This document shows positions 1 to 56,778 of a stretch of DNA of 56,778 nucleotides, piece after piece (positions within the stretch are counted from its first letter, which is position 1; each line of letters begins with the position of its first letter). The notes below the pieces were generated by a model. It was not told the origin of the DNA. It made no database searches and was given only the letters and a program-made list of their open reading frames with translations. The DNA lies in the IMG/VR virus record IMGVR_UViG_3300006188_000003; one strand, written 5' to 3'. The translations under genes and the position numbers were made by a program. Origin of the DNA: a virus.

Positions 1-27
1 GCGGAGAGAGAGGGATTCGAACCCCCG
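1..27 (-). repeat. att core, integrase-distal copy (displaced 3' end of tRNA)
   Basis: GCGGAGAGAGAGGGATTCGAACCCCCG is identical to 56752..56778. Its reverse complement carries a T-arm and the acceptor 3' strand, but no matching 5' tRNA half follows at 28..90. Confidence 0.85.
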
Positions 28-156: not shown

Positions 157-729
157 TCACCATTCTTTTTTGGTTTCAAAAGAGGCCCGCACCTGAGTTA
201 GAAAAGTTTCGAAGAAGGCTTCCAGATCTCTTTTAGCTCTCTCAGATTTTAGCTTCCTGTGAGAATTCCAGATTCCCAAGTAACTGCCATCTAATGTGTT
301 GTTCGATACTAGCTCAAGGTATTGCAGATGCCCTGTCGACGTACACGTCAGCTTAAATGAGGGTGCCTGAATCCTTATCTTTTCATCTTTAAATTCAAAA
401 TTGATGGTATAGTCGATATTAAAAAGATGCAGGGCATTTCTCCCAATTGCATCTACGGCAAATCCATTTAGCGTAACGGATTCATCCTGGACTTCGCTAA
501 TGACATTCTTAGGGTTTACAAACTTCTTTTGGGCATACAGCAAGACTGATTTATATAGGTCGGCCTTTTTCTGTCCAGGAATAGAAATAATTAGATAGTC
601 ATTTGAACTGTCAGATGCATCCCTGAAGCCTGAAGGAGTGAGAACAAAGGAGGGCGTTGTTCGAGGCGTGGTCTGCCCAGGGGCCGAAGCTACAAGACAG
701 AAGGTCGATATAAATAACAAAACCTTCAT
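157..729 (-). CDS. Secreted protein of unknown function (lysogeny-side cargo; weak resemblance to DUF4468-type Bacteroidota proteins)
   Basis: Start moved to ATG 729. MKVLLFISTFCLVASAPG/QTT is a Sec signal peptide with Gln at +1. AT-rich by eye. It is the last gene before att and is co-oriented with the repressor. Confidence 0.7.
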   Translation of the reverse strand: MKVLLFISTFCLVASAPGQTTPRTTPSFVLTPSGFRDASDSSNDYLIISIPGQKKADLYKSVLLYAQKKFVNPKNVISEVQDESVTLNGFAVDAIGRNALHLFNIDYTINFEFKDEKIRIQAPSFKLTCTSTGHLQYLELVSNNTLDGSYLGIWNSHRKLKSERAKRDLEAFFETFLTQVRASFETKKEW

Positions 730-793
730 GTTCTTTAATCGGAGGTTTTTAAAAGTCATTTGCATGATAAATTTCATATATAGGTATAAATAC

Positions 794-1006
794 CTATTTT
801 TTATATCGCGTATTGCCTGTACTTCCGAATTTATTAATTTGCTCATCCCTTCTACCTCTTCCATGAAAATCACCCACTTCTAGTTTTACTCCTGTTGCAC
901 TAATCATCATTGTTTCACCCTTAAACCACACTTCATCGGTATGGATACTCCCTGCCTGACCTGTACTAATCGATGCATTGCGTTTCAGAGACTCGGATCC
1001 TTTCAT
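794..1006 (-). CDS. Small hypothetical protein (70 aa) immediately downstream of the repressor
   Basis: ATG at 1006 abuts the repressor stop at 1008 on the same strand. No recognisable domain. Confidence 0.3.
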   Translation of the reverse strand: MKGSESLKRNASISTGQAGSIHTDEVWFKGETMMISATGVKLEVGDFHGRGRRDEQINKFGSTGNTRYKK

Positions 1007-1007
1007 C

Positions 1008-1511
1008 CTATTTATTGTCGTCATCCCCAGAAGAACCGTTTCTTCCAGCTGTTAGCAGCGCCAGATCGGCCATTATTTTCTCAGAGTCTACTGATAAAGT
1101 TTCTATCCCCGCCAATGCCTCGTTTAAATTAGTTTCGATCTTGGCCTGGCTCTCCTGCCGGGCCATATTTTTTTCGATGTTTTTTAAGATTTCGGTCTGT
1201 GCAGCAAAAGCCTTTGCTTGATCGCGGTAAGCCTCTGCCATCAATGTGAGGACCTTCTTCAACTCACTATTTCCGACTCCCTCATCATCAGTATCATTTT
1301 GTTCTATTCCCTCGTACGCAGCTAACAAATCCTTTCGACTAATTCCAAGGATTGCGCCCAACTCCTGCAACCTCGGCCACTTTGGGATTCTCCTTCCATC
1401 CTCATAAAATGCATAGGCTCTTTGAGTTATACCCAATTTGTCGCCCACGTCTTGTTGAGACATTTTCTTTTCTAATCGGGCCCTTTTCAATATTTCAGAA
1501 ACTTGATTCAA
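1008..1511 (-). CDS. XRE-family HTH repressor (CI-like), without an S24 peptidase domain
   Basis: HTH_3 motif LKRARLEKKMSQQDVGDKLGITQRAYAFYEDGRRIP with a coiled-coil C-terminus. The only start that keeps helix 1 is TTG at 1511. Divergent from the early operon. Confidence 0.8.
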   Translation of the reverse strand: MNQVSEILKRARLEKKMSQQDVGDKLGITQRAYAFYEDGRRIPKWPRLQELGAILGISRKDLLAAYEGIEQNDTDDEGVGNSELKKVLTLMAEAYRDQAKAFAAQTEILKNIEKNMARQESQAKIETNLNEALAGIETLSVDSEKIMADLALLTAGRNGSSGDDDNK

Positions 1512-1539
1512 ATCAATAAAGTTCTAAACAAGAAATAAA

Positions 1540-1578
1540 TGCTACTAAAAGTTTGGATGTTAGAAGCGTTTGCTACTA
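1540..1578 (+). promoter_or_regulatory. Two direct TGCTACTA boxes, candidate operators in the repressor/Cro intergenic region
   Basis: TGCTACTA at 1540..1547 and 1571..1578, 31 bp apart. The second box overlaps the -7 element of the rightward promoter. Confidence 0.4.
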
Positions 1579-1584
1579 TATTTG
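1552..1584 (+). promoter_or_regulatory. Rightward early promoter, Bacteroidota sigma-A type
   Basis: TTTG (1552..1555), a 21-nt spacer, then TATATTTG (1577..1584). This matches the TTTG / TAnnTTTG consensus exactly and lies about 33 bp upstream of ATG 1617. Confidence 0.6.
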
Positions 1585-1616
1585 TTTCATAATCGTTACA
1601 CGAAACGAATATACAA

Positions 1617-1847
1617 ATGAAAGTTAAGCAAAAGATATTGGACGTCATAGATAACCCGATTATTCGGACTTCAATTGCTGGCGAACTGCGTGTTGGCGAA
1701 CAGACTGTCGCTATTCATATGCGCCGCAATGCTTCCAATGGACGAATGACAAAAATGGATTTTTTACAGGCTATCAGTAGGGTGGCTAGTGTAGGAGTGG
1801 ATGAGATCTTAGAAGAAGAGGGTGAAACGACCATTGAAGGTATTTAA
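1617..1847 (+). CDS. Cro-like small DNA-binding protein
   Basis: First gene of the operon divergent from the repressor. Candidate HTH is RTSIAGELRVGEQTVAIHMRRN. Confidence 0.55.
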   Translation: MKVKQKILDVIDNPIIRTSIAGELRVGEQTVAIHMRRNASNGRMTKMDFLQAISRVASVGVDEILEEEGETTIEGI

Positions 1848-1924
1848 ACCCCCAAAGGGCACAAAGATAGGGGAGTGCCAGATTCCACCCAAATACAACT
1901 ATTGCATATAACCGATTTTAACTG

Positions 1925-2137
1925 ATGGATAGCAAACAAGAGTTTCGACGTCTCCGCAACGTCCTCCAGAAGGGTCTCCAGCAGCTGGATGTTCTCGAAA
2001 AAGCATACGAGGAACGGACAGCGCTGGCCCCTAAAGGAAAGAAGAGAAAGTTTTCCCTGCGGCAGGAGCTGGAGCACAATGCGGAATTGGGGATATGGCG
2101 CAAACCCACAGGTCTCATAAAATCTAAACATAAGTAA
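1925..2137 (+). CDS. Hypothetical early protein
   Basis: ATG ORF of 70 aa, basic and helical, tightly followed by the next ORF. Confidence 0.55.
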   Translation: MDSKQEFRRLRNVLQKGLQQLDVLEKAYEERTALAPKGKKRKFSLRQELEHNAELGIWRKPTGLIKSKHK

Positions 2138-2138
2138 G

Positions 2139-2414
2139 ATGTACAACGAACTATCTACTGCCGAAACGATCACCCACCACTTTGTGGATGATGCTGTGCC
2201 TGCTTACGAGGCAATGGAGAGCTTTCGCCGGCACTTTCCCCTGACGAATCCCCAAGTTTCAAACGACGGTCGATCGATGACCTATCAGGCGACAGCCACC
2301 CGGGATTCGCGGTTGTGTACAGCACATGCCATGGAACTGATCGACACCCTTCAGCTGCCACTTCAACCGATCATCCTGGACAACAAGGTCTGGATCCTAT
2401 ATACCGGCAAGTAG
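2139..2414 (+). CDS. Hypothetical early protein
   Basis: ATG ORF of 91 aa. Its stop TAG at 2412..2414 abuts hammerhead stem I. Confidence 0.6.
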   Translation: MYNELSTAETITHHFVDDAVPAYEAMESFRRHFPLTNPQVSNDGRSMTYQATATRDSRLCTAHAMELIDTLQLPLQPIILDNKVWILYTGK

Positions 2415-2492
2415 GTTAACTGATGAGCCCTCTATGGGCGAAACCGGGCGCGGAATAAAATAGTACCTGCTGAATGCGCTCAGGTCTTAACC
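2414..2492 (+). ncRNA. Type I hammerhead self-cleaving ribozyme (predicted cleavage between 2486 and 2487)
   Basis: Stem I is GGTTAA 2414-2419 paired with TTAACC 2487-2492. Core is CTGATGA 2420-2426. Stem II is GCCC/GGGC with loop TCTAT. GAA is at 2440-2442. Stem III starts with A2443-T2485, and the cleavage triplet is GTC 2484-2486. All invariant core positions are present. Confidence 0.8.
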
Positions 2493-2500
2493 AACGAGTA

Positions 2501-2656
2501 ATGAGCAACGACCGCATATACACCGATGTTCCGAACTGTGCCTTCCACAAGATCCTCCGGCAGTATGCCATTGAGATCGGCCGGCCCATTCTGACGATTC
2601 AGCAGCAGCGGATCATGCTTATCAATTATTCCTTTTTCGCTATAACCTTAAACTAA
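2501..2656 (+). CDS. Hypothetical small protein (51 aa)
   Basis: Start placed at ATG 2501, because the upstream ATG 2474 lies inside hammerhead stem III and upstream of the cleavage site. Confidence 0.45.
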   Translation: MSNDRIYTDVPNCAFHKILRQYAIEIGRPILTIQQQRIMLINYSFFAITLN

Positions 2657-2657
2657 A

Positions 2658-2849
2658 ATGAAGAAACTCATGAAAATCGCTCGAATTGGCACCTGGTTCT
2701 GTGCCGCCCTTTTTTGCAGCGCGATCTGGGGATGGGTAATTTCCCGGCAGATGAGGTTCGCCTTCTTGGCAGGTGCGGCTGTAGCAGGTGCATGGCTCTT
2801 TTCCTATTGTTTTAAACAATTCAAACGCATCGCCAATGGACCCCTTTAA
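2658..2849 (+). CDS. Small membrane protein (2 predicted TM helices)
   Basis: Hydrophobic segments IARIGTWFCAALFCSAIWGWVI and FAFLAGAAVAGAWLFSYCF. Confidence 0.6.
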   Translation: MKKLMKIARIGTWFCAALFCSAIWGWVISRQMRFAFLAGAAVAGAWLFSYCFKQFKRIANGPL

Positions 2850-2994
2850 ACTCATTTTGAGCATCCTGGTTTTTGTTGCCCTTTACGTTGGGTATCAGTG
2901 GGGCAAGACCCGTGATGAGCGTCGCCGAGCCCGTGAGAGGAGGATGTTCTGGGAGCGGGAGGAGGCGAAACTGCCGAAGGCAAATAGAAAATAG
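2836..2994 (+). CDS. Small single-pass membrane protein (52 aa)
   Basis: ATG 2836: MDPFKLILSILVFVALYVGYQW followed by an Arg/Glu-rich tail. Confidence 0.5.
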   Translation: MDPFKLILSILVFVALYVGYQWGKTRDERRRARERRMFWEREEAKLPKANRK

Positions 2995-3381
2995 AAAATC
3001 TTTTGATATAAAACATATCGCAAGGTTACTCGTGACGGTCTTTTGTGGCGTGGCTTTCCTGATGGTCATCAACCTTATGACCGGTTGCCGGAAGGAGCTG
3101 CCCGTAGAGTCGCCGGCAACGCCGACGCCGAAGCAGAAATGCAGCTGCCGGCCGATGCCCCAGGTAGATACTACGCATGCATCCACGTTAGACCCAGGAA
3201 CCTGATTAGCGTCCTTGGACGCTTCTGGGGTTGATTCGCACCCTCTCACCTGGCGGCTGGAGATGGGAAGCGGTCCCCACCTCTTTAATCTGTCCGGGCA
3301 GTCTCCCGAAGAGTTCTTTACAATCTTCCGTCTTTGACGGAAAAATCTCAAACAGGGCCGGCTCCATACTGCCGGCCAAAT

Positions 3382-3449
3382 GGGGAAGTAGTTCAGCGGT
3401 AGAACAGGCTCGCAACGCCTAGTCGGTGGTTCGAATCCATCCTTCTCCA
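3382..3449 (+). tRNA. tRNA-like gene (68 nt) with canonical acceptor, D and T arms but only a 3-4 bp anticodon stem
   Basis: GGGGAAG-TA-GTTC-AGCGGTA-GAAC-A-GGC-TCGCAAC-GCC-TAGTC-GGTGG-TTCGAAT-CCATC-CTTCTCC-A. The 5' half closely resembles bacterial tRNA-Gly. The loop would read GCA with C at position 33. CCA is not encoded. Confidence 0.5.
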
Positions 3450-3582
3450 CGCTCTTAGGCGGGATATAAGCAGACCAGCGCAGCGGTGGCGAGGCTGGCA
3501 TACCGCGGAAGACCACCCCAGCCGATGGCAGGCTGACGATCGGGAAAGACCGGGTGACTCTTAGGAATACCAGCTAAGTGAA

Positions 3583-3650
3583 AGGGATGCGCGCTATCAG
3601 ACCCGCGCGGGCAGGGTAGCAACGAAAAGGGTTCGACTCCCGGCATCCCT
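3583..3650 (+). ncRNA. 68-nt stem-closed element carrying a T-loop-like motif
   Basis: AGGGATGC 3583-3590 pairs with GCATCCCT 3643-3650. Internally there is GGG-TTCGACT-CCC and a GCTA..TAGC arm enclosing CCC-GCGC-GGG. It does not fold as a cloverleaf. Confidence 0.3.
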
Positions 3651-3691
3651 CAAGTAGAATTATTCTACAGTTTAGGGTTTAGGGGTTATTG

Positions 3692-3720
3692 GCGGGATGT
3701 TTCTACGTCCCGCACCTTTT
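3692..3720 (+). terminator. Terminator-like hairpin inside the non-coding locus
   Basis: GCGGGA (3692-3697) pairs with TCCCGC (3708-3713) across a 10-nt loop, followed by ACCTTTT. Confidence 0.4.
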
Positions 3721-3743
3721 AATAGTTCTTTGAATCAACATAA

Positions 3744-3870
3744 TTGCGGGTGGCGGAATAAGACGCTAACCAGGTGGGCTAACAGGTAACAGACGACAAA
3801 GCGCGACAAGTCCGGAAACTAACCACCATGCAGGTATGAGACAATCCTGCCCCGCAAACATATTTTTTTT
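3744..3870 (+). ncRNA. Candidate structured small RNA closed by a long-range stem and ending in a T-run
   Basis: TTGCGGG 3744-3750 pairs with CCCGCAA 3851-3857, nested GGTGG 3750-3754 pairs with CCACC 3824-3828, and GCTAAC(C)AGGT occurs twice. T8 at 3863-3870. No ORF. Confidence 0.25.
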
Positions 3871-3873
3871 GAT

Positions 3874-4233
3874 ATGTCAACTGATGCCCTACGACCTGAT
3901 CCCAGGCAGGGGGCCATTCTCAGGTCCATAATAGGATATTGGATTTTAGCACCCTCCGGCTGGTCTCAGCTGGAGGACCATTTTAAAAAATTTTTTATGA
4001 ATACTTACAGAGAACGTGTACAGGCTCTTATTGAAACCCTTCAGGCTTGCTATGACGAGGCAGGGGTGTTAAGGGATTACTCAGACGGGGAATCTATGAA
4101 AGCGCCTTTTAATAATGCCAGGCGTTTGCTGGTGGACGTGTGGAGTCCTCTCCAATCACTAGATAACCGCCTGCCTGACGATGTAGCTGCAATGAACACG
4201 AAGGGCTGCGGTTTGGTCAAGGAATCTAAGTAA
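3874..4233 (+). CDS. Hypothetical protein (start uncertain; alternative ATG at 3997)
   Basis: ATG ORF of 119 aa. The C-terminal two thirds look protein-like and helical. Confidence 0.5.
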   Translation: MSTDALRPDPRQGAILRSIIGYWILAPSGWSQLEDHFKKFFMNTYRERVQALIETLQACYDEAGVLRDYSDGESMKAPFNNARRLLVDVWSPLQSLDNRLPDDVAAMNTKGCGLVKESK

Positions 4234-12243: not shown

Positions 12244-13941
12244 ATGGATATGACGATCAACGAATCAAAGTTAGGCTTTGAAGTTTCCTTCCCATTCGAT
12301 ACCCGGAAGAATGACGCTGTTAGGGAAATACACGGCTCCTGGTGGAATGAAACGAAGAAGTGCTGGGTTGTACCCCGCCGGAAGCAGGGGGAGCTTAAAC
12401 GCCTGCAGGCCCGGTTTAATAAAGGGCATAAAGACGTCGGGCTGCTCCCATCTCAGGTGGGCTTTGAAGTGGAAGCATGCGTGGCCGATAAGACCCTTCC
12501 AAAGCTCAGCATCGAGATCCCGCTGAAGAGAGCTCTCCGGGAATATCAGGCAGATGGGGTGGCCTATGGCATTGAAAAGAAGCGCACCCTCATCGGCGAT
12601 CAGCAGGGGCTTGGAAAGACGATCCAGGCAATCGCCATGGTTGTCGCCCAGAAGGCCTTTCCCTGCCTGGTGATCTGCAAAAGCTCCCTCGTACTGAACT
12701 GGGAAAAGGAGATCAAGGACTGGACGCACGAGAAGCCCATGGTTTTCCGAGACAGTGTAAAACGCAGCTGGCCGGTATTCTTCCAGTCCCATTTCTGCCA
12801 GTTTGGTATCGTGTCGTACGACTCCCTTAAAAAGTACTTCGTTACTGGCTTTAAGGAGCCGGGCGAGGACGAGGTATTCATGGTGAAGCACATCATGTAC
12901 CGTTCGGAGATCAGCCTCTTTAAGTCCGTGATCGTGGATGAAAGCCACTACATCAAAGACGAGAAGGTCCTGCGTACCAAGCTGACCGTAGGCCTTTGCC
13001 TGCGCCGGCAGAGTGTGTATCTCTTGTCCGGGACCCCTGTTCTTAATGCTCCGGAAGAGCTGTATCCTCAGCTGGTCGCCCTGGGTATCGCCAATCACTT
13101 TGGTTCCAAGGCTAATTTCAAAGCGCTATACGGCAAGAACAATCCCCGGCAGAAGGAGGCACTCCCTTACCTCAACTACCTGCTGCACAGGCATGGTTAT
13201 TACCGCCGGCTCAAGAGCGAGGTGGCCACCGATATACCGCCGAAGACCCGGCAGGTGATCTTATGTGAGATCGACAATCGGGAGGAGTACGACTTGGCTG
13301 AGAAGAACTTCAGGAAGTTTCTTGAAGAGCGGCTGATGATGACCGGGGGGCAGATCGACCGGGCGCTACGTGCGGAGGCCCTGGTACAAATGATGCGTCT
13401 GCGGGAGATCTCCGCCCGGGGCAAGCTGAAGGACGCTTATCAGTGGATTGATGATCTCCTTGAGCAGGGCGAGAAGGTGGTCATCTTCGGCCACCATAAG
13501 GAGATCACCCGGGCCTTGGCGCAATATCGTCCTGATACTACCGTACGCCTGTGCGGATCCGCTGATAAGGAGACGCTGGACAGGCGCAAGCAAAAGTTCC
13601 AGACCGATCCCGCGATCCAGGCCTGTGTATGTTCCCTTCTGGCGGACTCTGAAGGTCATACCCTCACCGCGGCAAGCAACATCGGCCTTCTGGAGTTCCC
13701 CTGGCACTTCGGTAAAGCCGAGCAGGCTGAGGATCGCGTACATCGGATCGGCACCGTATACCCCGTCACTGCCTCCTACTTCCTGGGCTCCCGGACCATC
13801 GATCGGAAGATTTACAAGCTCATCATGTCCAAGAAAGATATCCATGACCTGGTCACCGGCACCGAGGAGGATGTTGAGAACCGCGTGGTCGATAACCTGA
13901 TCAATTTATTTAACCAAAAAGATGAGGAGGACGAAGAATGA
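12244..13941 (+). CDS. SNF2-family (SF2) helicase / DNA translocase
   Basis: LREYQADGVAYG, GDQQGLGKTIQAI (motif I), VIVDESHYIKD (motif II) and a helicase-C region QAEDRVHRIG. ATG 12244 is preferred over TTG 12220. Confidence 0.8.
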   Translation: MDMTINESKLGFEVSFPFDTRKNDAVREIHGSWWNETKKCWVVPRRKQGELKRLQARFNKGHKDVGLLPSQVGFEVEACVADKTLPKLSIEIPLKRALREYQADGVAYGIEKKRTLIGDQQGLGKTIQAIAMVVAQKAFPCLVICKSSLVLNWEKEIKDWTHEKPMVFRDSVKRSWPVFFQSHFCQFGIVSYDSLKKYFVTGFKEPGEDEVFMVKHIMYRSEISLFKSVIVDESHYIKDEKVLRTKLTVGLCLRRQSVYLLSGTPVLNAPEELYPQLVALGIANHFGSKANFKALYGKNNPRQKEALPYLNYLLHRHGYYRRLKSEVATDIPPKTRQVILCEIDNREEYDLAEKNFRKFLEERLMMTGGQIDRALRAEALVQMMRLREISARGKLKDAYQWIDDLLEQGEKVVIFGHHKEITRALAQYRPDTTVRLCGSADKETLDRRKQKFQTDPAIQACVCSLLADSEGHTLTAASNIGLLEFPWHFGKAEQAEDRVHRIGTVYPVTASYFLGSRTIDRKIYKLIMSKKDIHDLVTGTEEDVENRVVDNLINLFNQKDEEDEE

Positions 13942-47671: not shown

Positions 47672-47696
47672 TTTTTTAACCAATACACACTACAAA

Positions 47697-55364: not shown

Positions 55365-56657
55365 CTATTTTTCGGCAGCTGGAAGGAAGGAAGGCGAATT
55401 CTCGATAATCCTCTTTTTATACACTTCCTTCACAACTTTGGCATATTTCTCTGTCATGTACTTACTGCCATGACCATACAGTTCTCGCAGCTCATCCAGC
55501 TCCATGCCGGCAAGGATCTTGTCGTCCCCACCAGTACGCTTCATTGCATACTGGTGTTTGTCGATGCCGAGCTTCTCCTTTATCAAACTCTTCCATAGCT
55601 TCGTTACCGTATCACGTTTTATACGGGTCGGGGAGGGGCTAAAGTATTCGGGCCTTGCGGCTCCAATCACGCCACCAGTAGAAGACCCACCTCCTCTATT
55701 ACCCTTGCCGGAAACAAAGGGGCTCCCGAAAACATAATAGTCCTGGGAATATTCCTCCAGGTTCATTTCACGCAGGAAAGGGAGTAAGTGGTTGTTTATT
55801 GGAATGTATCGTATCTTTTTGACCTTCGAGTTTTCTTCTTCCAGGATGGGAATGATTTTGATCTCTGGTTTAGTGAGGTCGATATCGCGGATCTTTAAGG
55901 AAAGGATCTCTTTGGGGCGAATGCCGGTGTGATAGAGTACCATCAGGTATACGAAAAATTTGTAGTGATTAATAACGAGAAATTCGTACAGGTCCTTCTT
56001 TTCCTTTTCGGTCAGTGGGACATACTTTTCCGTCTCAGCCACCGGCAAGGGCTTTATCTTATGCGCTGGGTTATACTCCAGAACTTCCCATTCGATGAGA
56101 TACTCGCATAGGGCATGTAGGTATGTGAGATTTTTATTATGAGCAGCATTTGTCCAGACCTGCCTGCCCTTCGGAATATTTTTCGAGGTAAGACAGCAAT
56201 CCAGCAGGAGCTTGACATGCTGCCGCCGAAAGTCTTTAGCTGTAACATCATGAAGAGACAAGGACCGGGCGGCTCTCTTCAAATCATTCACCGTCGTTCT
56301 GTAAGCTCTGATGGTGGCCGAGGATGCCTTATAGCTCTTAAGGGCAAATTCCAGCGCGCCAATGAAAGACAGCTTCTCCAGAGCGGTGACGGCAGATGAA
56401 GGTGAAGGGTCATCCGTGAGCCCCCAGGGATTCCAGCCGGTTTCAAGTTTCTTGAGCCAGGTTTTGGCAAGGGCCAAGCCTGCCTTTCGCCTCTCGTCTG
56501 TGTCATGATAGTAGTTAATGCCGGAACGAAATTGTTTGGAGATGGTCTGATTTGTGACCGGGTTAGTGATGTCAAAATAGACAAACCAGGGCTTTGTGAC
56601 GTCGCCTTTATAGTCACAAAGCCTGGGTTCCGTGTACGTTACTGCTGGCATATTCAT
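55365..56657 (-). CDS. int: Tyrosine recombinase / phage integrase (Bacteroidota type with an N-terminal arm-binding region)
   Basis: HTGIRPKEILSLKIRDIDL (catalytic Arg), HQYAMKRTGG (HxxR) and GHGSKYMTEKY (Tyr). Adjacent to the att core. Confidence 0.9.
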   Translation of the reverse strand: MNMPAVTYTEPRLCDYKGDVTKPWFVYFDITNPVTNQTISKQFRSGINYYHDTDERRKAGLALAKTWLKKLETGWNPWGLTDDPSPSSAVTALEKLSFIGALEFALKSYKASSATIRAYRTTVNDLKRAARSLSLHDVTAKDFRRQHVKLLLDCCLTSKNIPKGRQVWTNAAHNKNLTYLHALCEYLIEWEVLEYNPAHKIKPLPVAETEKYVPLTEKEKKDLYEFLVINHYKFFVYLMVLYHTGIRPKEILSLKIRDIDLTKPEIKIIPILEEENSKVKKIRYIPINNHLLPFLREMNLEEYSQDYYVFGSPFVSGKGNRGGGSSTGGVIGAARPEYFSPSPTRIKRDTVTKLWKSLIKEKLGIDKHQYAMKRTGGDDKILAGMELDELRELYGHGSKYMTEKYAKVVKEVYKKRIIENSPSFLPAAEK

Positions 56658-56751: not shown

Positions 56752-56778
56752 GCGGAGAGAGAGGGATTCGAACCCCCG
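56752..56778 (-). tRNA. 3' end of host tRNA gene (Ser-like acceptor); integrase-proximal att core; gene body continues beyond the window
   Basis: The minus strand reads GGGGG-TTCGAAT-CCCTC then TCTCTCC-G. This is a canonical T-loop with an acceptor strand complementary to GGAGAGA and discriminator G, as in bacterial tRNA-Ser. The anticodon lies outside the window, so the isotype is inference. Confidence 0.65.

What the first reader, a model, noticed from the sequence alone, without database searches (positions are those of the whole stretch)
2414..2492. Complete type I hammerhead ribozyme between two early cistrons
The plus strand between the stop of 2139..2414 and ATG 2501 folds into a full hammerhead.
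- Stem I: GGTTAA 2414-2419 paired with TTAACC 2487-2492.
- Core C3-A9: CTGATGA 2420-2426.
- Stem II: GCCC 2427-2430 paired with GGGC 2436-2439, with canonical G10.1-C11.1 and loop TCTAT.
- G12-A13-A14: 2440-2442.
- Stem III: A2443-T2485 (A15.1-U16.1), C2444-G2484 and C2445-G2483, a bulged A2482, then GGGCGC 2446-2451 paired with GCGCTC 2476-2481.
- Cleavage triplet: GTC 2484-2486.

Every invariant core position is satisfied, which is very unlikely by chance in about 57 kb. Cleavage would cut the early polycistronic mRNA 14 nt upstream of the next ATG. It would also remove the in-frame ATG at 2474, which lies inside stem III. Hammerheads are known in phage contexts, but their role in prophage operons is unresolved.
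Basis: partly seen in the sequence, partly recalled or inferred. Interest (0 to 1): 0.8.

Follow-up and report, generated by a model that had tools for sequence, protein, structure and literature searches.

The report
Self-cleaving hammerhead in prophage early operon
A complete, almost certainly genuine hammerhead self-cleaving RNA sits between two small early genes of a Bacteroidota prophage, where it should cut the early messenger RNA just ahead of the next gene; this kind of phage ribozyme is already known and very common, so it is a sound but fairly ordinary find.

Summary
Window 2414-2492(+) contains every invariant hammerhead core position, three helices and a GUC cleavage triplet in type I topology, and it is the MFE fold of the isolated element. 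Rfam does not detect it (best 17.7 bits against a gathering score of 48.5), but Rfam also misses every compact relative I tested, so this is a coverage gap. Two DNA-pattern scans of viral contigs gave 222 distinct type I hammerheads with the same architecture: a 6-bp stem I, a 4-bp stem II with a U-NNN-U pentaloop, an unpaired A 5' of stem I and AA 3' of it. A covariance model built from 102 of them, without the window, scores the window at 53.8 bits (E about 5e-11), the only hit. In the family the ribozyme fills the intergenic gap: the upstream stop codon abuts or overlaps stem I and the next start lies about 20-30 nt after the cut (14 nt here). Related prophages lack it, and one is a precise empty site that keeps the post-cleavage leader. 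Most likely function, inferred rather than shown: co-transcriptional cutting of the early polycistronic mRNA at 2486/2487. Phage and prophage hammerheads have been known since 2010-2011 and their role is still unresolved. Verdict: real, a new member of a known kind, modest interest.

The parts
2139..2414 (+). Upstream early ORF (91 aa, no family match). Its stop codon UAG 2412-2414 ends on the first base of stem I.
   Evidence: homologues P0001-P0003. The stop/stem I overlap at offset -1 is shared by 29 family members.
2413..2413 (+). Unpaired A immediately 5' of stem I; candidate partner in the stem I / loop II tertiary contact.
   Evidence: A at this position in 188/222 family members and over 90% conserved in A1. 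The tertiary role is inferred from the conserved reverse-Hoogsteen contacts described in PMC6155905.
2414..2419 (+). Stem I, 5' strand (GGUUAA).
   Evidence: Stem I is 6 bp in 176/222 relatives, all 6 pairs covary, and GGUUAA/UUAACC is among the commonest variants.
2420..2426 (+). Catalytic core C3-A9 (CUGAUGA).
   Evidence: invariant columns in A1.
2427..2439 (+). Stem II hairpin: GCCC/GGGC (G10.1-C11.1) with pentaloop UCUAU 2431-2435. The first loop U is near-invariant in the family.
   Evidence: A 13-nt stem II hairpin occurs in 160/222 relatives, T23 is over 90% conserved, and stem II covaries.
2440..2442 (+). Core G12-A13-A14.
   Evidence: invariant in A1.
2443..2485 (+). Stem III hairpin, unusually long at 43 nt: A15.1-U16.1, C-G, C-G, bulged A2482, then 6-7 further pairs and a loop of about 22 nt. 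It contains the in-frame ATG 2474-2476.
   Evidence: Family stem III is typically 14-24 nt, and only about 5 of 222 exceed 40 nt. The model treats 32 nt as an insertion.
2486..2487 (+). C17 and the predicted scissile bond (cleavage 3' of C2486; the downstream product starts at U2487 with a 5'-OH).
   Evidence: Position follows from the hammerhead consensus (GUC triplet). H17 is C in 203/222 relatives. Cleavage itself was not tested.
2487..2492 (+). Stem I, 3' strand (UUAACC).
2493..2494 (+). Conserved unpaired AA 3' of stem I.
   Evidence: A at 92% and 83% in the family, against 40-60% at later leader positions.
2487..2500 (+). 14-nt leader that would remain on the downstream mRNA after cleavage (UUAACCAACGAGUA).
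   Evidence: Conserved 15/17 with the hammerhead-free homologous locus L197. Predicted unpaired probability rises to 0.96 after cleavage.
2501..2656 (+). Downstream small ORF (51 aa) whose start codon follows the cleavage site.
   Evidence: Called by the NCBI annotation of the identical prophage (L201). Its start region is conserved in L197. No family match.

Best explanation
Window 2414-2492(+) is a genuine type I hammerhead self-cleaving ribozyme. It belongs to a very common class of compact hammerheads that fill intergenic gaps in phage and prophage operons. It is transcribed as part of the rightward early transcript of a temperate Bacteroidota (Sphingobacteriales) prophage. Once its 3' stem I strand emerges, it should cleave between C2486 and U2487. 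That cut severs the early polycistronic mRNA into two parts. The upstream part (ORFs 1617-2414) ends in the ribozyme's stem II and stem III hairpins with a 2',3'-cyclic phosphate. The downstream part starts with a 5'-OH and an unstructured 14-nt leader in front of ATG 2501, and continues to tRNA-Cys, RecT and beyond. The likely consequence is that stability and translation of the two halves become uncoupled. Shown here: the sequence and structure match, family membership, covariation in the family, intergenic placement and strand. Inferred: self-cleavage activity, the tertiary contact (A2413/A2493-94 with U2431 of loop II), and the effect on mRNA fate, including its direction.
For: All core positions and helices are present, and this is the MFE fold of the element. 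It is the only such motif in the window, with a chance expectation of 0.004 per window. A core-half pattern that did not impose stems I or III or the GUC found 82 sites in viral contigs, of which 80 complete to full hammerheads. Stems I, II and III covary strongly: 98.7% of cells paired against 32-38% when partners are slid, and 466 cells with double changes. Model R1, built without the window, scores it at 53.8 bits, E 4.8e-11, against 56-70 bits for typical members. The window has offset -1 and 14 nt. The element lies in a + strand run of early ORFs downstream of a divergent HTH repressor, and no terminator-like site occurs between 1617 and 2687. The 5' product retains stems II and III at its 3' end, and leader accessibility rises from 0.33-0.65 to 0.96 on cleavage. 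Literature: prophage hammerheads cleave in vitro and in E. coli and were proposed to process polycistronic phage RNA (PMC3088659; PMC6765202).
Against: Rfam curated models do not reach threshold. No orthologous copy with sequence variation was found: all other copies are identical, and close relatives of the prophage lack the element. Covariation evidence is therefore family-wide, not locus-specific. Stem III is atypically long and bulged. With flanking RNA the hammerhead fold is 0.3-4 kcal/mol above the MFE, with equilibrium probability 0.005-0.2. The cut-to-start distance of 14 nt is at the short tail of the family. The downstream 51-aa ORF is not called by all annotators. The direction of the effect on mRNA stability is unknown, because a 5'-OH can stabilise or, where RNase J is present, destabilise the product (general knowledge, as for the glmS ribozyme).
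Confidence: 0.82

Rival explanations
1. Active ribozyme, but a selfish or neutral passenger. The hammerhead body is a small cassette that is gained and lost at intergenic leaders, possibly by microhomology at the partly palindromic UUAA of stem I. It gives this phage no specific regulatory benefit.
For: Presence is patchy among close relatives: the 82% homologue of the upstream gene has a 33-nt gap and no hammerhead, and the Puia relative has none. L197 is a precise empty site that keeps the post-cleavage leader, with homology starting at C17|UUAACC. TTAAC is a 5-nt direct repeat at both ends of the body (2416-2420 and 2487-2491). Hammerhead-free TTAACCAA leaders exist in the window and in relatives, and 3' remnants occur in L117 and L113.
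Against: The class is very abundant, its core and tertiary-contact positions look to be under purifying selection, and it keeps a tight and consistent position relative to stop and start codons. This argues for a selected role. Type III members occupy the same slot just upstream of a gene start. No mobility machinery or mechanism is known.
Confidence: 0.12
2. Decayed or poorly active relic. The sequence still matches the consensus, but the long bulged stem III and competing folds keep it from cleaving efficiently in vivo.
For: Stem III is 43 nt with a bulge next to the third pair, against a typical 14-24 nt. The R1 score is at the low end of the family (53.8 against 56-70 bits). The hammerhead fold is not the MFE in longer contexts. 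Decayed variants do exist in the family, such as L088 with CCGAUGAG.
Against: All 13 invariant core positions, all closing pairs and the three near-invariant non-core positions are intact. Stem III length is the most variable feature of the family, with well-paired extensions of 31-40 nt in other members. Secondary-structure energies ignore the tertiary contact, co-transcriptional folding and ribosome clearing of the upstream ORF.
Confidence: 0.05
3. Chance occurrence of a hammerhead-like pattern in a non-coding spacer, with no ribozyme function.
For: Short motifs recur by chance when many windows are scanned: lax criteria give 0.042 per window. Rfam is below threshold. The fold z-score is only -1.6.
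Against: E 4.8e-11 with an independently built model. The element also matches class-specific features outside the core that no search pattern imposed. It has the correct strand and the typical intergenic placement, with the stop codon overlapping stem I.
Confidence: 0.01

Closest known systems
Phage/prophage-associated hammerhead ribozymes (Perreault et al. 2011, PMC3088659; De la Pena and Garcia-Robles 2010, as cited in PMC6155905)
   Same: Canonical core, three helices, intergenic location in prophage polycistronic units, and the coding strand. It meets their acceptance criteria: the full core and no mispair next to the core. The proposed role is the same, processing long phage transcripts, and so is the unresolved biology.
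   Different: There is a single copy here, rather than the multi-ribozyme arrangements flanking genes that the paper highlights. Stem III is unusually long and bulged. The host lineage is a Sphingobacteriales prophage. I could not check whether this exact sequence or the 6-bp-stem-I subclass is in their alignments.
Rfam hammerhead families (RF00163 Hammerhead_1, RF00008 Hammerhead_3, RF02275 HH9, RF03152 RAGATH-1-hammerhead; clan CL00010)
   Same: The same catalytic core. HH9 and RAGATH-1 consensus sequences show the same type I layout with a short stem I next to CUGAUGA...GUC.
   Different: Scores are far below gathering: window 17.7 bits (Hammerhead_3, wrong topology); compact relative 23.3 bits (HH9, gathering 52) and 20.7 bits (RAGATH-1, gathering 56.3). 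It lacks the extra 5' hairpin of RAGATH-1.
glmS ribozyme (functional analogy only)
   Same: Self-cleavage within an mRNA yields a 5'-OH downstream product whose fate differs from that of the uncut RNA (general knowledge; mentioned in PMC6765202).
   Different: A different fold. glmS is metabolite-dependent and sits in a 5' UTR, whereas no ligand dependence is indicated here and the site lies between cistrons.
Theta (minimal HDV-like) ribozymes of gut phages (PMC10879173)
   Same: Small self-cleaving ribozymes embedded in Caudoviricetes transcripts with an RNA-processing role (title and abstract).
   Different: A different ribozyme class, and theta ribozymes lie adjacent to tRNAs. Here the tRNA-Cys is about 900 nt downstream, so no tRNA-processing link is supported. 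One family member, L040, does follow a tRNA directly.

Membership tests
Hammerhead ribozyme | Core C3 U4 G5 A6 N7 G8 A9 | tested here: met
   CUGAUGA at 2420-2426; aligned to invariant model columns.
Hammerhead ribozyme | Core G12 A13 A14 followed by the A15.1-U16.1 pair | tested here: met
   GAA 2440-2442; A2443 pairs with U2485.
Hammerhead ribozyme | Cleavage-site nucleotide H17 (not G) 3' of U16.1 | tested here: met
   C2486, GUC triplet 2484-2486.
Hammerhead ribozyme | Three helices around the core with no mispair adjacent to it (Perreault 2011 acceptance criterion, PMC3088659) | tested here: met
   Stem I has 6 bp, stem II has 4 bp with G10.1-C11.1, and stem III has 3 bp, a bulge, then 6-7 bp. 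All core-proximal pairs are Watson-Crick.
Hammerhead ribozyme | Significant score against a hammerhead covariance model | tested here: inconclusive
   Rfam curated models: not met (17.7 bits against 48.5). Rfam also misses the compact relatives.
Hammerhead ribozyme | Elements for the stem I / stem II tertiary contact needed for fast cleavage at physiological Mg2+ | tested here: inconclusive
   The near-invariant non-core positions of the class are present (A2413, U2431, A2493-A2494), and the geometry fits (6-bp stem I, 4-bp stem II plus loop). The contact itself is inferred from PMC6155905, not demonstrated.
Hammerhead ribozyme | Site-specific Mg2+-dependent self-cleavage giving 2',3'-cyclic phosphate and 5'-OH ends | not testable with these tools
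   Needs in vitro transcription and cleavage mapping, or 5'-OH / cyclic-phosphate RNA-seq.
Type I topology | Stem I open, stems II and III closed by loops; order is stem I 5' strand, CUGAUGA, stem II hairpin, GAA, stem III hairpin, H17, stem I 3' strand | tested here: met
Compact phage intergenic type I class (defined here from 222 members) | 6-bp stem I, 13-nt stem II hairpin (4 bp plus U-NNN-U), unpaired A 5' and AA 3' of stem I | tested here: met
   The window has all four. Class frequencies are 176/222, 160/222, 188/222 and about 157/222.
Compact phage intergenic type I class (defined here from 222 members) | Short stem III hairpin (typically 14-24 nt) | tested here: not met
   43 nt with a bulge. 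Only about 5 of 222 exceed 40 nt, although 31-40 nt extensions occur.
Compact phage intergenic type I class (defined here from 222 members) | Coding strand; upstream stop codon abutting or overlapping stem I; next start about 20-40 nt after the cut | tested here: inconclusive
   Strand and stop codon: met (UAG overlaps G2414; offset -1 is shared by 29 members). Start distance is 14 nt, at the short tail, with only 6 members at 13-14 nt.
Conserved element of this prophage lineage | Presence at the syntenic position in related prophages, with compensatory changes | tested here: not met
   Only identical copies were found (L198-L201). The 82% and 53% homologous loci and the Puia RecT relative lack it. 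Pattern scans for variants found nothing.

The most novel reading that the evidence does not exclude
The element is one instance of a modular, translation-coupled processing cassette. The ribozyme body is gained and lost precisely next to a reusable UUAACCAA, A-rich leader. The upstream gene's stop codon is built into or against stem I, so a terminating ribosome unfolds stem I and the core. Self-cleavage, and hence severing of the early transcript, would then be gated by translation of the upstream gene. This would give phage hammerheads a concrete regulatory logic, which the field currently lacks.
Probability: 0.1. Interest if true: 0.6.

Novelty: new member of a known kind. Interest (0 to 1): 0.3.

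Why it matters
In itself this adds one more well-supported hammerhead to the thousands already known in phages. It is a useful test case because it is a single ribozyme in a complete, well-delimited temperate phage. It lies three small genes into the early operon next to the repressor switch, and a natural empty-site allele exists (L197). That makes the long-open question of what phage hammerheads do testable with one point mutation. It also shows that Rfam's curated hammerhead models miss an abundant phage type I class, so annotation pipelines will systematically overlook these elements.

Tried and rejected
1. Rfam at gathering score on the whole window, permissive locally, and permissive on the whole window: no hammerhead above threshold and no other ribozyme class. 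I do not count this as evidence against, because Rfam also misses the relatives.
2. blastn of 1600-3600 against GenBank phages: no match.
3. The search for related loci with the 91-aa ORF in viral contigs: nothing.
4. Synteny with the only related genome found (Puia sp., RecT 71% identity): homology starts only at window 4342, and there is no hammerhead there.
5. Homologues of the upstream ORF: three clusters only. The non-identical ones lack the ribozyme.
6. Scans for close variants with a long stem III in viral contigs and metagenomes: zero hits, so the stem III extension has no comparative support.
7. Thermodynamic support in longer context: neutral to weak.
8. Link to the tRNA-Cys: rejected, because it lies about 900 nt away.
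9. A second hammerhead that would allow excision of a gene or circular RNA: none in the window.
10. The hairpin-GGTGTC|TTAACCAA repeats of L117 and L113 as a possible new ribozyme or as trans-cleavage substrates: no core and no Rfam hit. They match the 3' end of that phage's own hammerhead, so I read them as remnants.
11. MAFFT alignment of the window, L197 and L196 junctions was uninformative. A local pairwise alignment resolved it.

Full report
**1. Observation**

- Stem I is GGTTAA 2414-2419 paired with TTAACC 2487-2492.
- The core CTGATGA is at 2420-2426.
- Stem II is GCCC/GGGC around the loop TCTAT.
- GAA is at 2440-2442.
- Stem III starts with A2443-T2485, C2444-G2484 and C2445-G2483, has a bulged A2482, and continues with GGGCGC 2446-2451 paired to GCGCTC 2476-2481.
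- The cleavage triplet GTC is at 2484-2486.

The upstream ORF 2139-2414 ends with TAG 2412-2414, so its last base is the first base of stem I. ATG 2501 lies 14 nt after the predicted cut. ATG 2474 is in frame with it and sits inside stem III. The isolated 79-nt RNA folds into precisely this three-way junction as its minimum-energy and centroid structure (-22.9 kcal/mol, z = -1.6).

**2. Is it more than chance?**

A purpose-written scan finds this as the only complete type I motif on either strand of the window. In 1500 dinucleotide-preserving shuffles of the window, a motif at least as good is expected 0.004 times per window, and 0.042 times with lax stems. That alone is not decisive if many windows were screened, so I looked for independent evidence.

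**3. Rfam**

No hammerhead reaches the gathering score. With permissive filters the best match is Hammerhead_3 at 17.7 bits (gathering score 48.5), and it uses the core in the wrong topology. A permissive scan of the whole window found no other ribozyme. However, Rfam at gathering score also found nothing in 12 viral loci that each carry a textbook compact type I hammerhead. One of those scores only 23.3 bits on HH9 and 20.7 bits on RAGATH-1-hammerhead. The Rfam negative is therefore a coverage gap for this class and does not count against the element.

**4. The family**

A pattern fixing only CTGATGA, the stem II sequence GCCC...GGGC and GAAACC found 82 sites in 77 viral contigs. Stems I and III, U16.1 and H17 were not imposed, yet 80 of the 82 complete to full hammerheads, about 50 type I and 30 type III. 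It also hit its limit in bacterial genomes, where it appears in many Legionella, several Bacteroidota, Bacillota and others.

Together the viral loci hold 222 distinct type I hammerheads. They share a specific architecture:
- Stem I is exactly 6 bp in 176/222.
- The stem II hairpin is 13 nt (4 bp plus a U-NNN-U pentaloop) in 160/222.
- An unpaired A lies 5' of stem I in 188/222.
- AA follows stem I: A at 92% and 83%, against 40-60% further into the leader.
- H17 is C in 203/222.

The window has all of these: A2413, UCUAU, A2493-A2494 and C2486. Its stem I, GGUUAA/UUAACC, is one of the commonest.

An alignment of 102 non-redundant members without the window shows strong covariation in all three stems. 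98.7% of cells are paired, against 32-38% when partners are slid, and 466 cells have changes on both sides. The members were selected for pairing, so the unbiased test is the 80/82 completion rate. A covariance model built from that alignment scores the window at 53.8 bits, E 4.8e-11, as the only hit. Typical members score 56-70 bits. Membership in the hammerhead family, and in this compact phage class, is well supported.

**5. Where the window's copy is atypical**

Stem III is 43 nt with a bulge, whereas the class typically has 14-24 nt. Only about 5 of 222 exceed 40 nt, although well-paired extensions of 31-40 nt exist. Scans for close variants with a long stem III found nothing in viral contigs or metagenomes, so the extension has no comparative support.

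With flanking RNA included, the hammerhead fold is 0.3-4 kcal/mol above the MFE, with equilibrium probability 0.005-0.2. This is neutral evidence, because tertiary contacts, co-transcriptional folding and ribosomes on the upstream ORF are not modelled.

**6. Genomic context**

The window is a complete prophage.
- It begins and ends with the same 27-nt sequence, the reverse complement of a tRNA 3' end (1-27 and 56752-56778).
- It carries an integrase at 55365-56657(-), an SPP1-type portal, ParB-like and SNF2 proteins and RecT.
- One assembly carries the circular or tandem junction.
- The identical upstream protein is annotated in a Sphingobacteriales MAG, and the nearest relative is in a Puia genome.

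The hammerhead lies in the rightward early operon, three small ORFs downstream of a divergent HTH repressor at 1008-1511(-). No terminator-like site occurs before 2687.

**7. Family-wide placement**

- Type I members lie on the coding strand in 178 cases against 43.
- The upstream ORF's stop is within -10..+5 nt of stem I in 125/213. The preferred offsets are -6 (stem I's own UAA, 35 cases), -1 (UAG whose G starts stem I, as in the window, 29 cases) and 0 (23 cases).
- The next start codon lies 20-40 nt after the cut in 144/213. The window's 14 nt is at the short tail.
- Type III members also sit 0-25 nt upstream of the next start in 25/31 cases. So the common denominator is a cut just ahead of a gene's initiation region, whichever fragment keeps the ribozyme body.

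**8. Gain and loss**

Copies in other assemblies are identical. The locus with an 82% homologue of the upstream gene has a 33-nt gap and no ribozyme. The locus with a 53% homologue (L197) reads TAA-CCAC-TTAACCAAGAGCAATG. Homology with the window begins exactly at C17|TTAACC and covers the leader, the ATG and about eight codons, roughly 32/40 identical. L197 is therefore a precise empty site lacking the 72-nt body.

TTAACCAA also occurs three more times on the window's + strand and never on the - strand. Two of these are hammerhead-free leaders 21 and 28 nt upstream of start codons. In the viral loci, 24 of 48 hammerhead-free TTAACCAA sites lie 15-35 nt upstream of an ORF start, against a mean of 3.3 and a maximum of 14 for composition-matched 8-mers. 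Some phages carry 3' remnants such as GGCGGTGTC|TTAACCAA. The ribozyme body thus appears to come and go next to a reusable leader.

**9. Mechanism (inferred)**

Cleavage at 2486/2487 would leave the upstream RNA with an intact stop codon and the stem II and III hairpins at its 3' end. It would leave the downstream RNA with a 5'-OH and a 14-nt leader. The predicted unpaired probability of that leader rises from 0.33 (hammerhead fold) or about 0.65 (ensemble) to 0.96.

This matches the role proposed in the literature for prophage hammerheads, namely processing polycistronic phage transcripts into units with different stability or translation (PMC3088659; PMC6765202). Reviews still call this role unresolved (PMC6155905). 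The direction of the effect on stability cannot be predicted here.

**10. Verdict**

The element is a new member of a known, abundant kind, not a new kind. Its value is as a clean test case: a single ribozyme, a complete temperate phage and a natural empty-site allele. It also shows that curated models miss this class. Interest is 0.3.

Noticed in passing
window 1-27 and 56752-56778; integrase 55365-56657(-): The window starts and ends with the same 27-nt sequence GCGGAGAGAGAGGGATTCGAACCCCCG, the reverse complement of a tRNA T-arm and acceptor 3' end. The window is therefore a whole prophage from attL to attR, integrated into a tRNA gene. One JGI contig (L200) carries the end-to-start junction, meaning a circular or tandem form.
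   Followed up: partly
L197 1060-1105 (jgi 3300003320 rootH2_10091186) vs window 2412-2524: A precise empty site: a 53% homologue of the upstream gene is followed by TAA-CCAC-TTAACCAAGAGCAATG. It keeps the post-cleavage leader (15/17 identical) and the first codons but lacks the 72-nt ribozyme body.
   Followed up: yes
window 13910-13917 and 47676-47683 (also 35655): TTAACCAA, the stem I 3' strand plus AA, occurs 4 times on the + strand and never on the - strand. Two copies are hammerhead-free leaders, 28 nt and 21 nt upstream of ATG 13938 and ATG 47697. The same enrichment 15-35 nt upstream of starts is seen in viral loci: 24/48 against a control mean of 3.3.
   Followed up: partly
window 3382-3450 (+): Phage-encoded tRNA-Cys (anticodon GCA) in the early region, followed by a terminator-like hairpin at 3692-3713. 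It is too far from the hammerhead (about 900 nt) to be linked to it.
   Followed up: no
window 3726-3860 (+): Sub-threshold Rfam match to manA RNA (20.2 bits against a gathering score of 55.2, E 0.53) in the non-coding stretch between the tRNA and ORF 3874. Probably noise, but the stretch is a long non-coding gap.
   Followed up: no
L117 3150-4010; L113 about 470-560: Repeated units of hairpin plus GGCGGTGTC|TTAACCAA plus a short A/T leader plus ATG, in front of successive small genes, with no hammerhead core. They match the 3' end of that phage's own complete hammerhead (L117 2939-3008), so they look like 3' remnants or copies. No other Rfam ribozyme is detected there.
   Followed up: partly
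L040 11451-11556 (-): A type I hammerhead lies about 10 nt downstream of a tRNA gene on the same strand. This resembles the tRNA-adjacent theta ribozymes of gut phages.
   Followed up: no
L249 (Aliivibrio MAG JAAGZR010000219.1) 538-3877; L063; L007; L081; L084; L092; L094; L140: Dense arrays of hammerheads: six in 3.4 kb in L249, four type I in about 1 kb in L063, and three in several other contigs. This is consistent with the multi-ribozyme arrangements reported in 2011.
   Followed up: no
L088 642-701 (-); L190 (-) 3372 region: Members with core or stem II deviations, for example L088 with CCGAUGAG (U4 to C), still score about 59 bits with R1. These are possible inactive or variant-core copies.
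   Followed up: no
L001-L194 generally; L016 3312-3369: Rfam 15 curated thresholds miss this abundant compact phage type I hammerhead class altogether. The best scores are about 20-25 bits against HH9 and RAGATH-1-hammerhead.
   Followed up: yes
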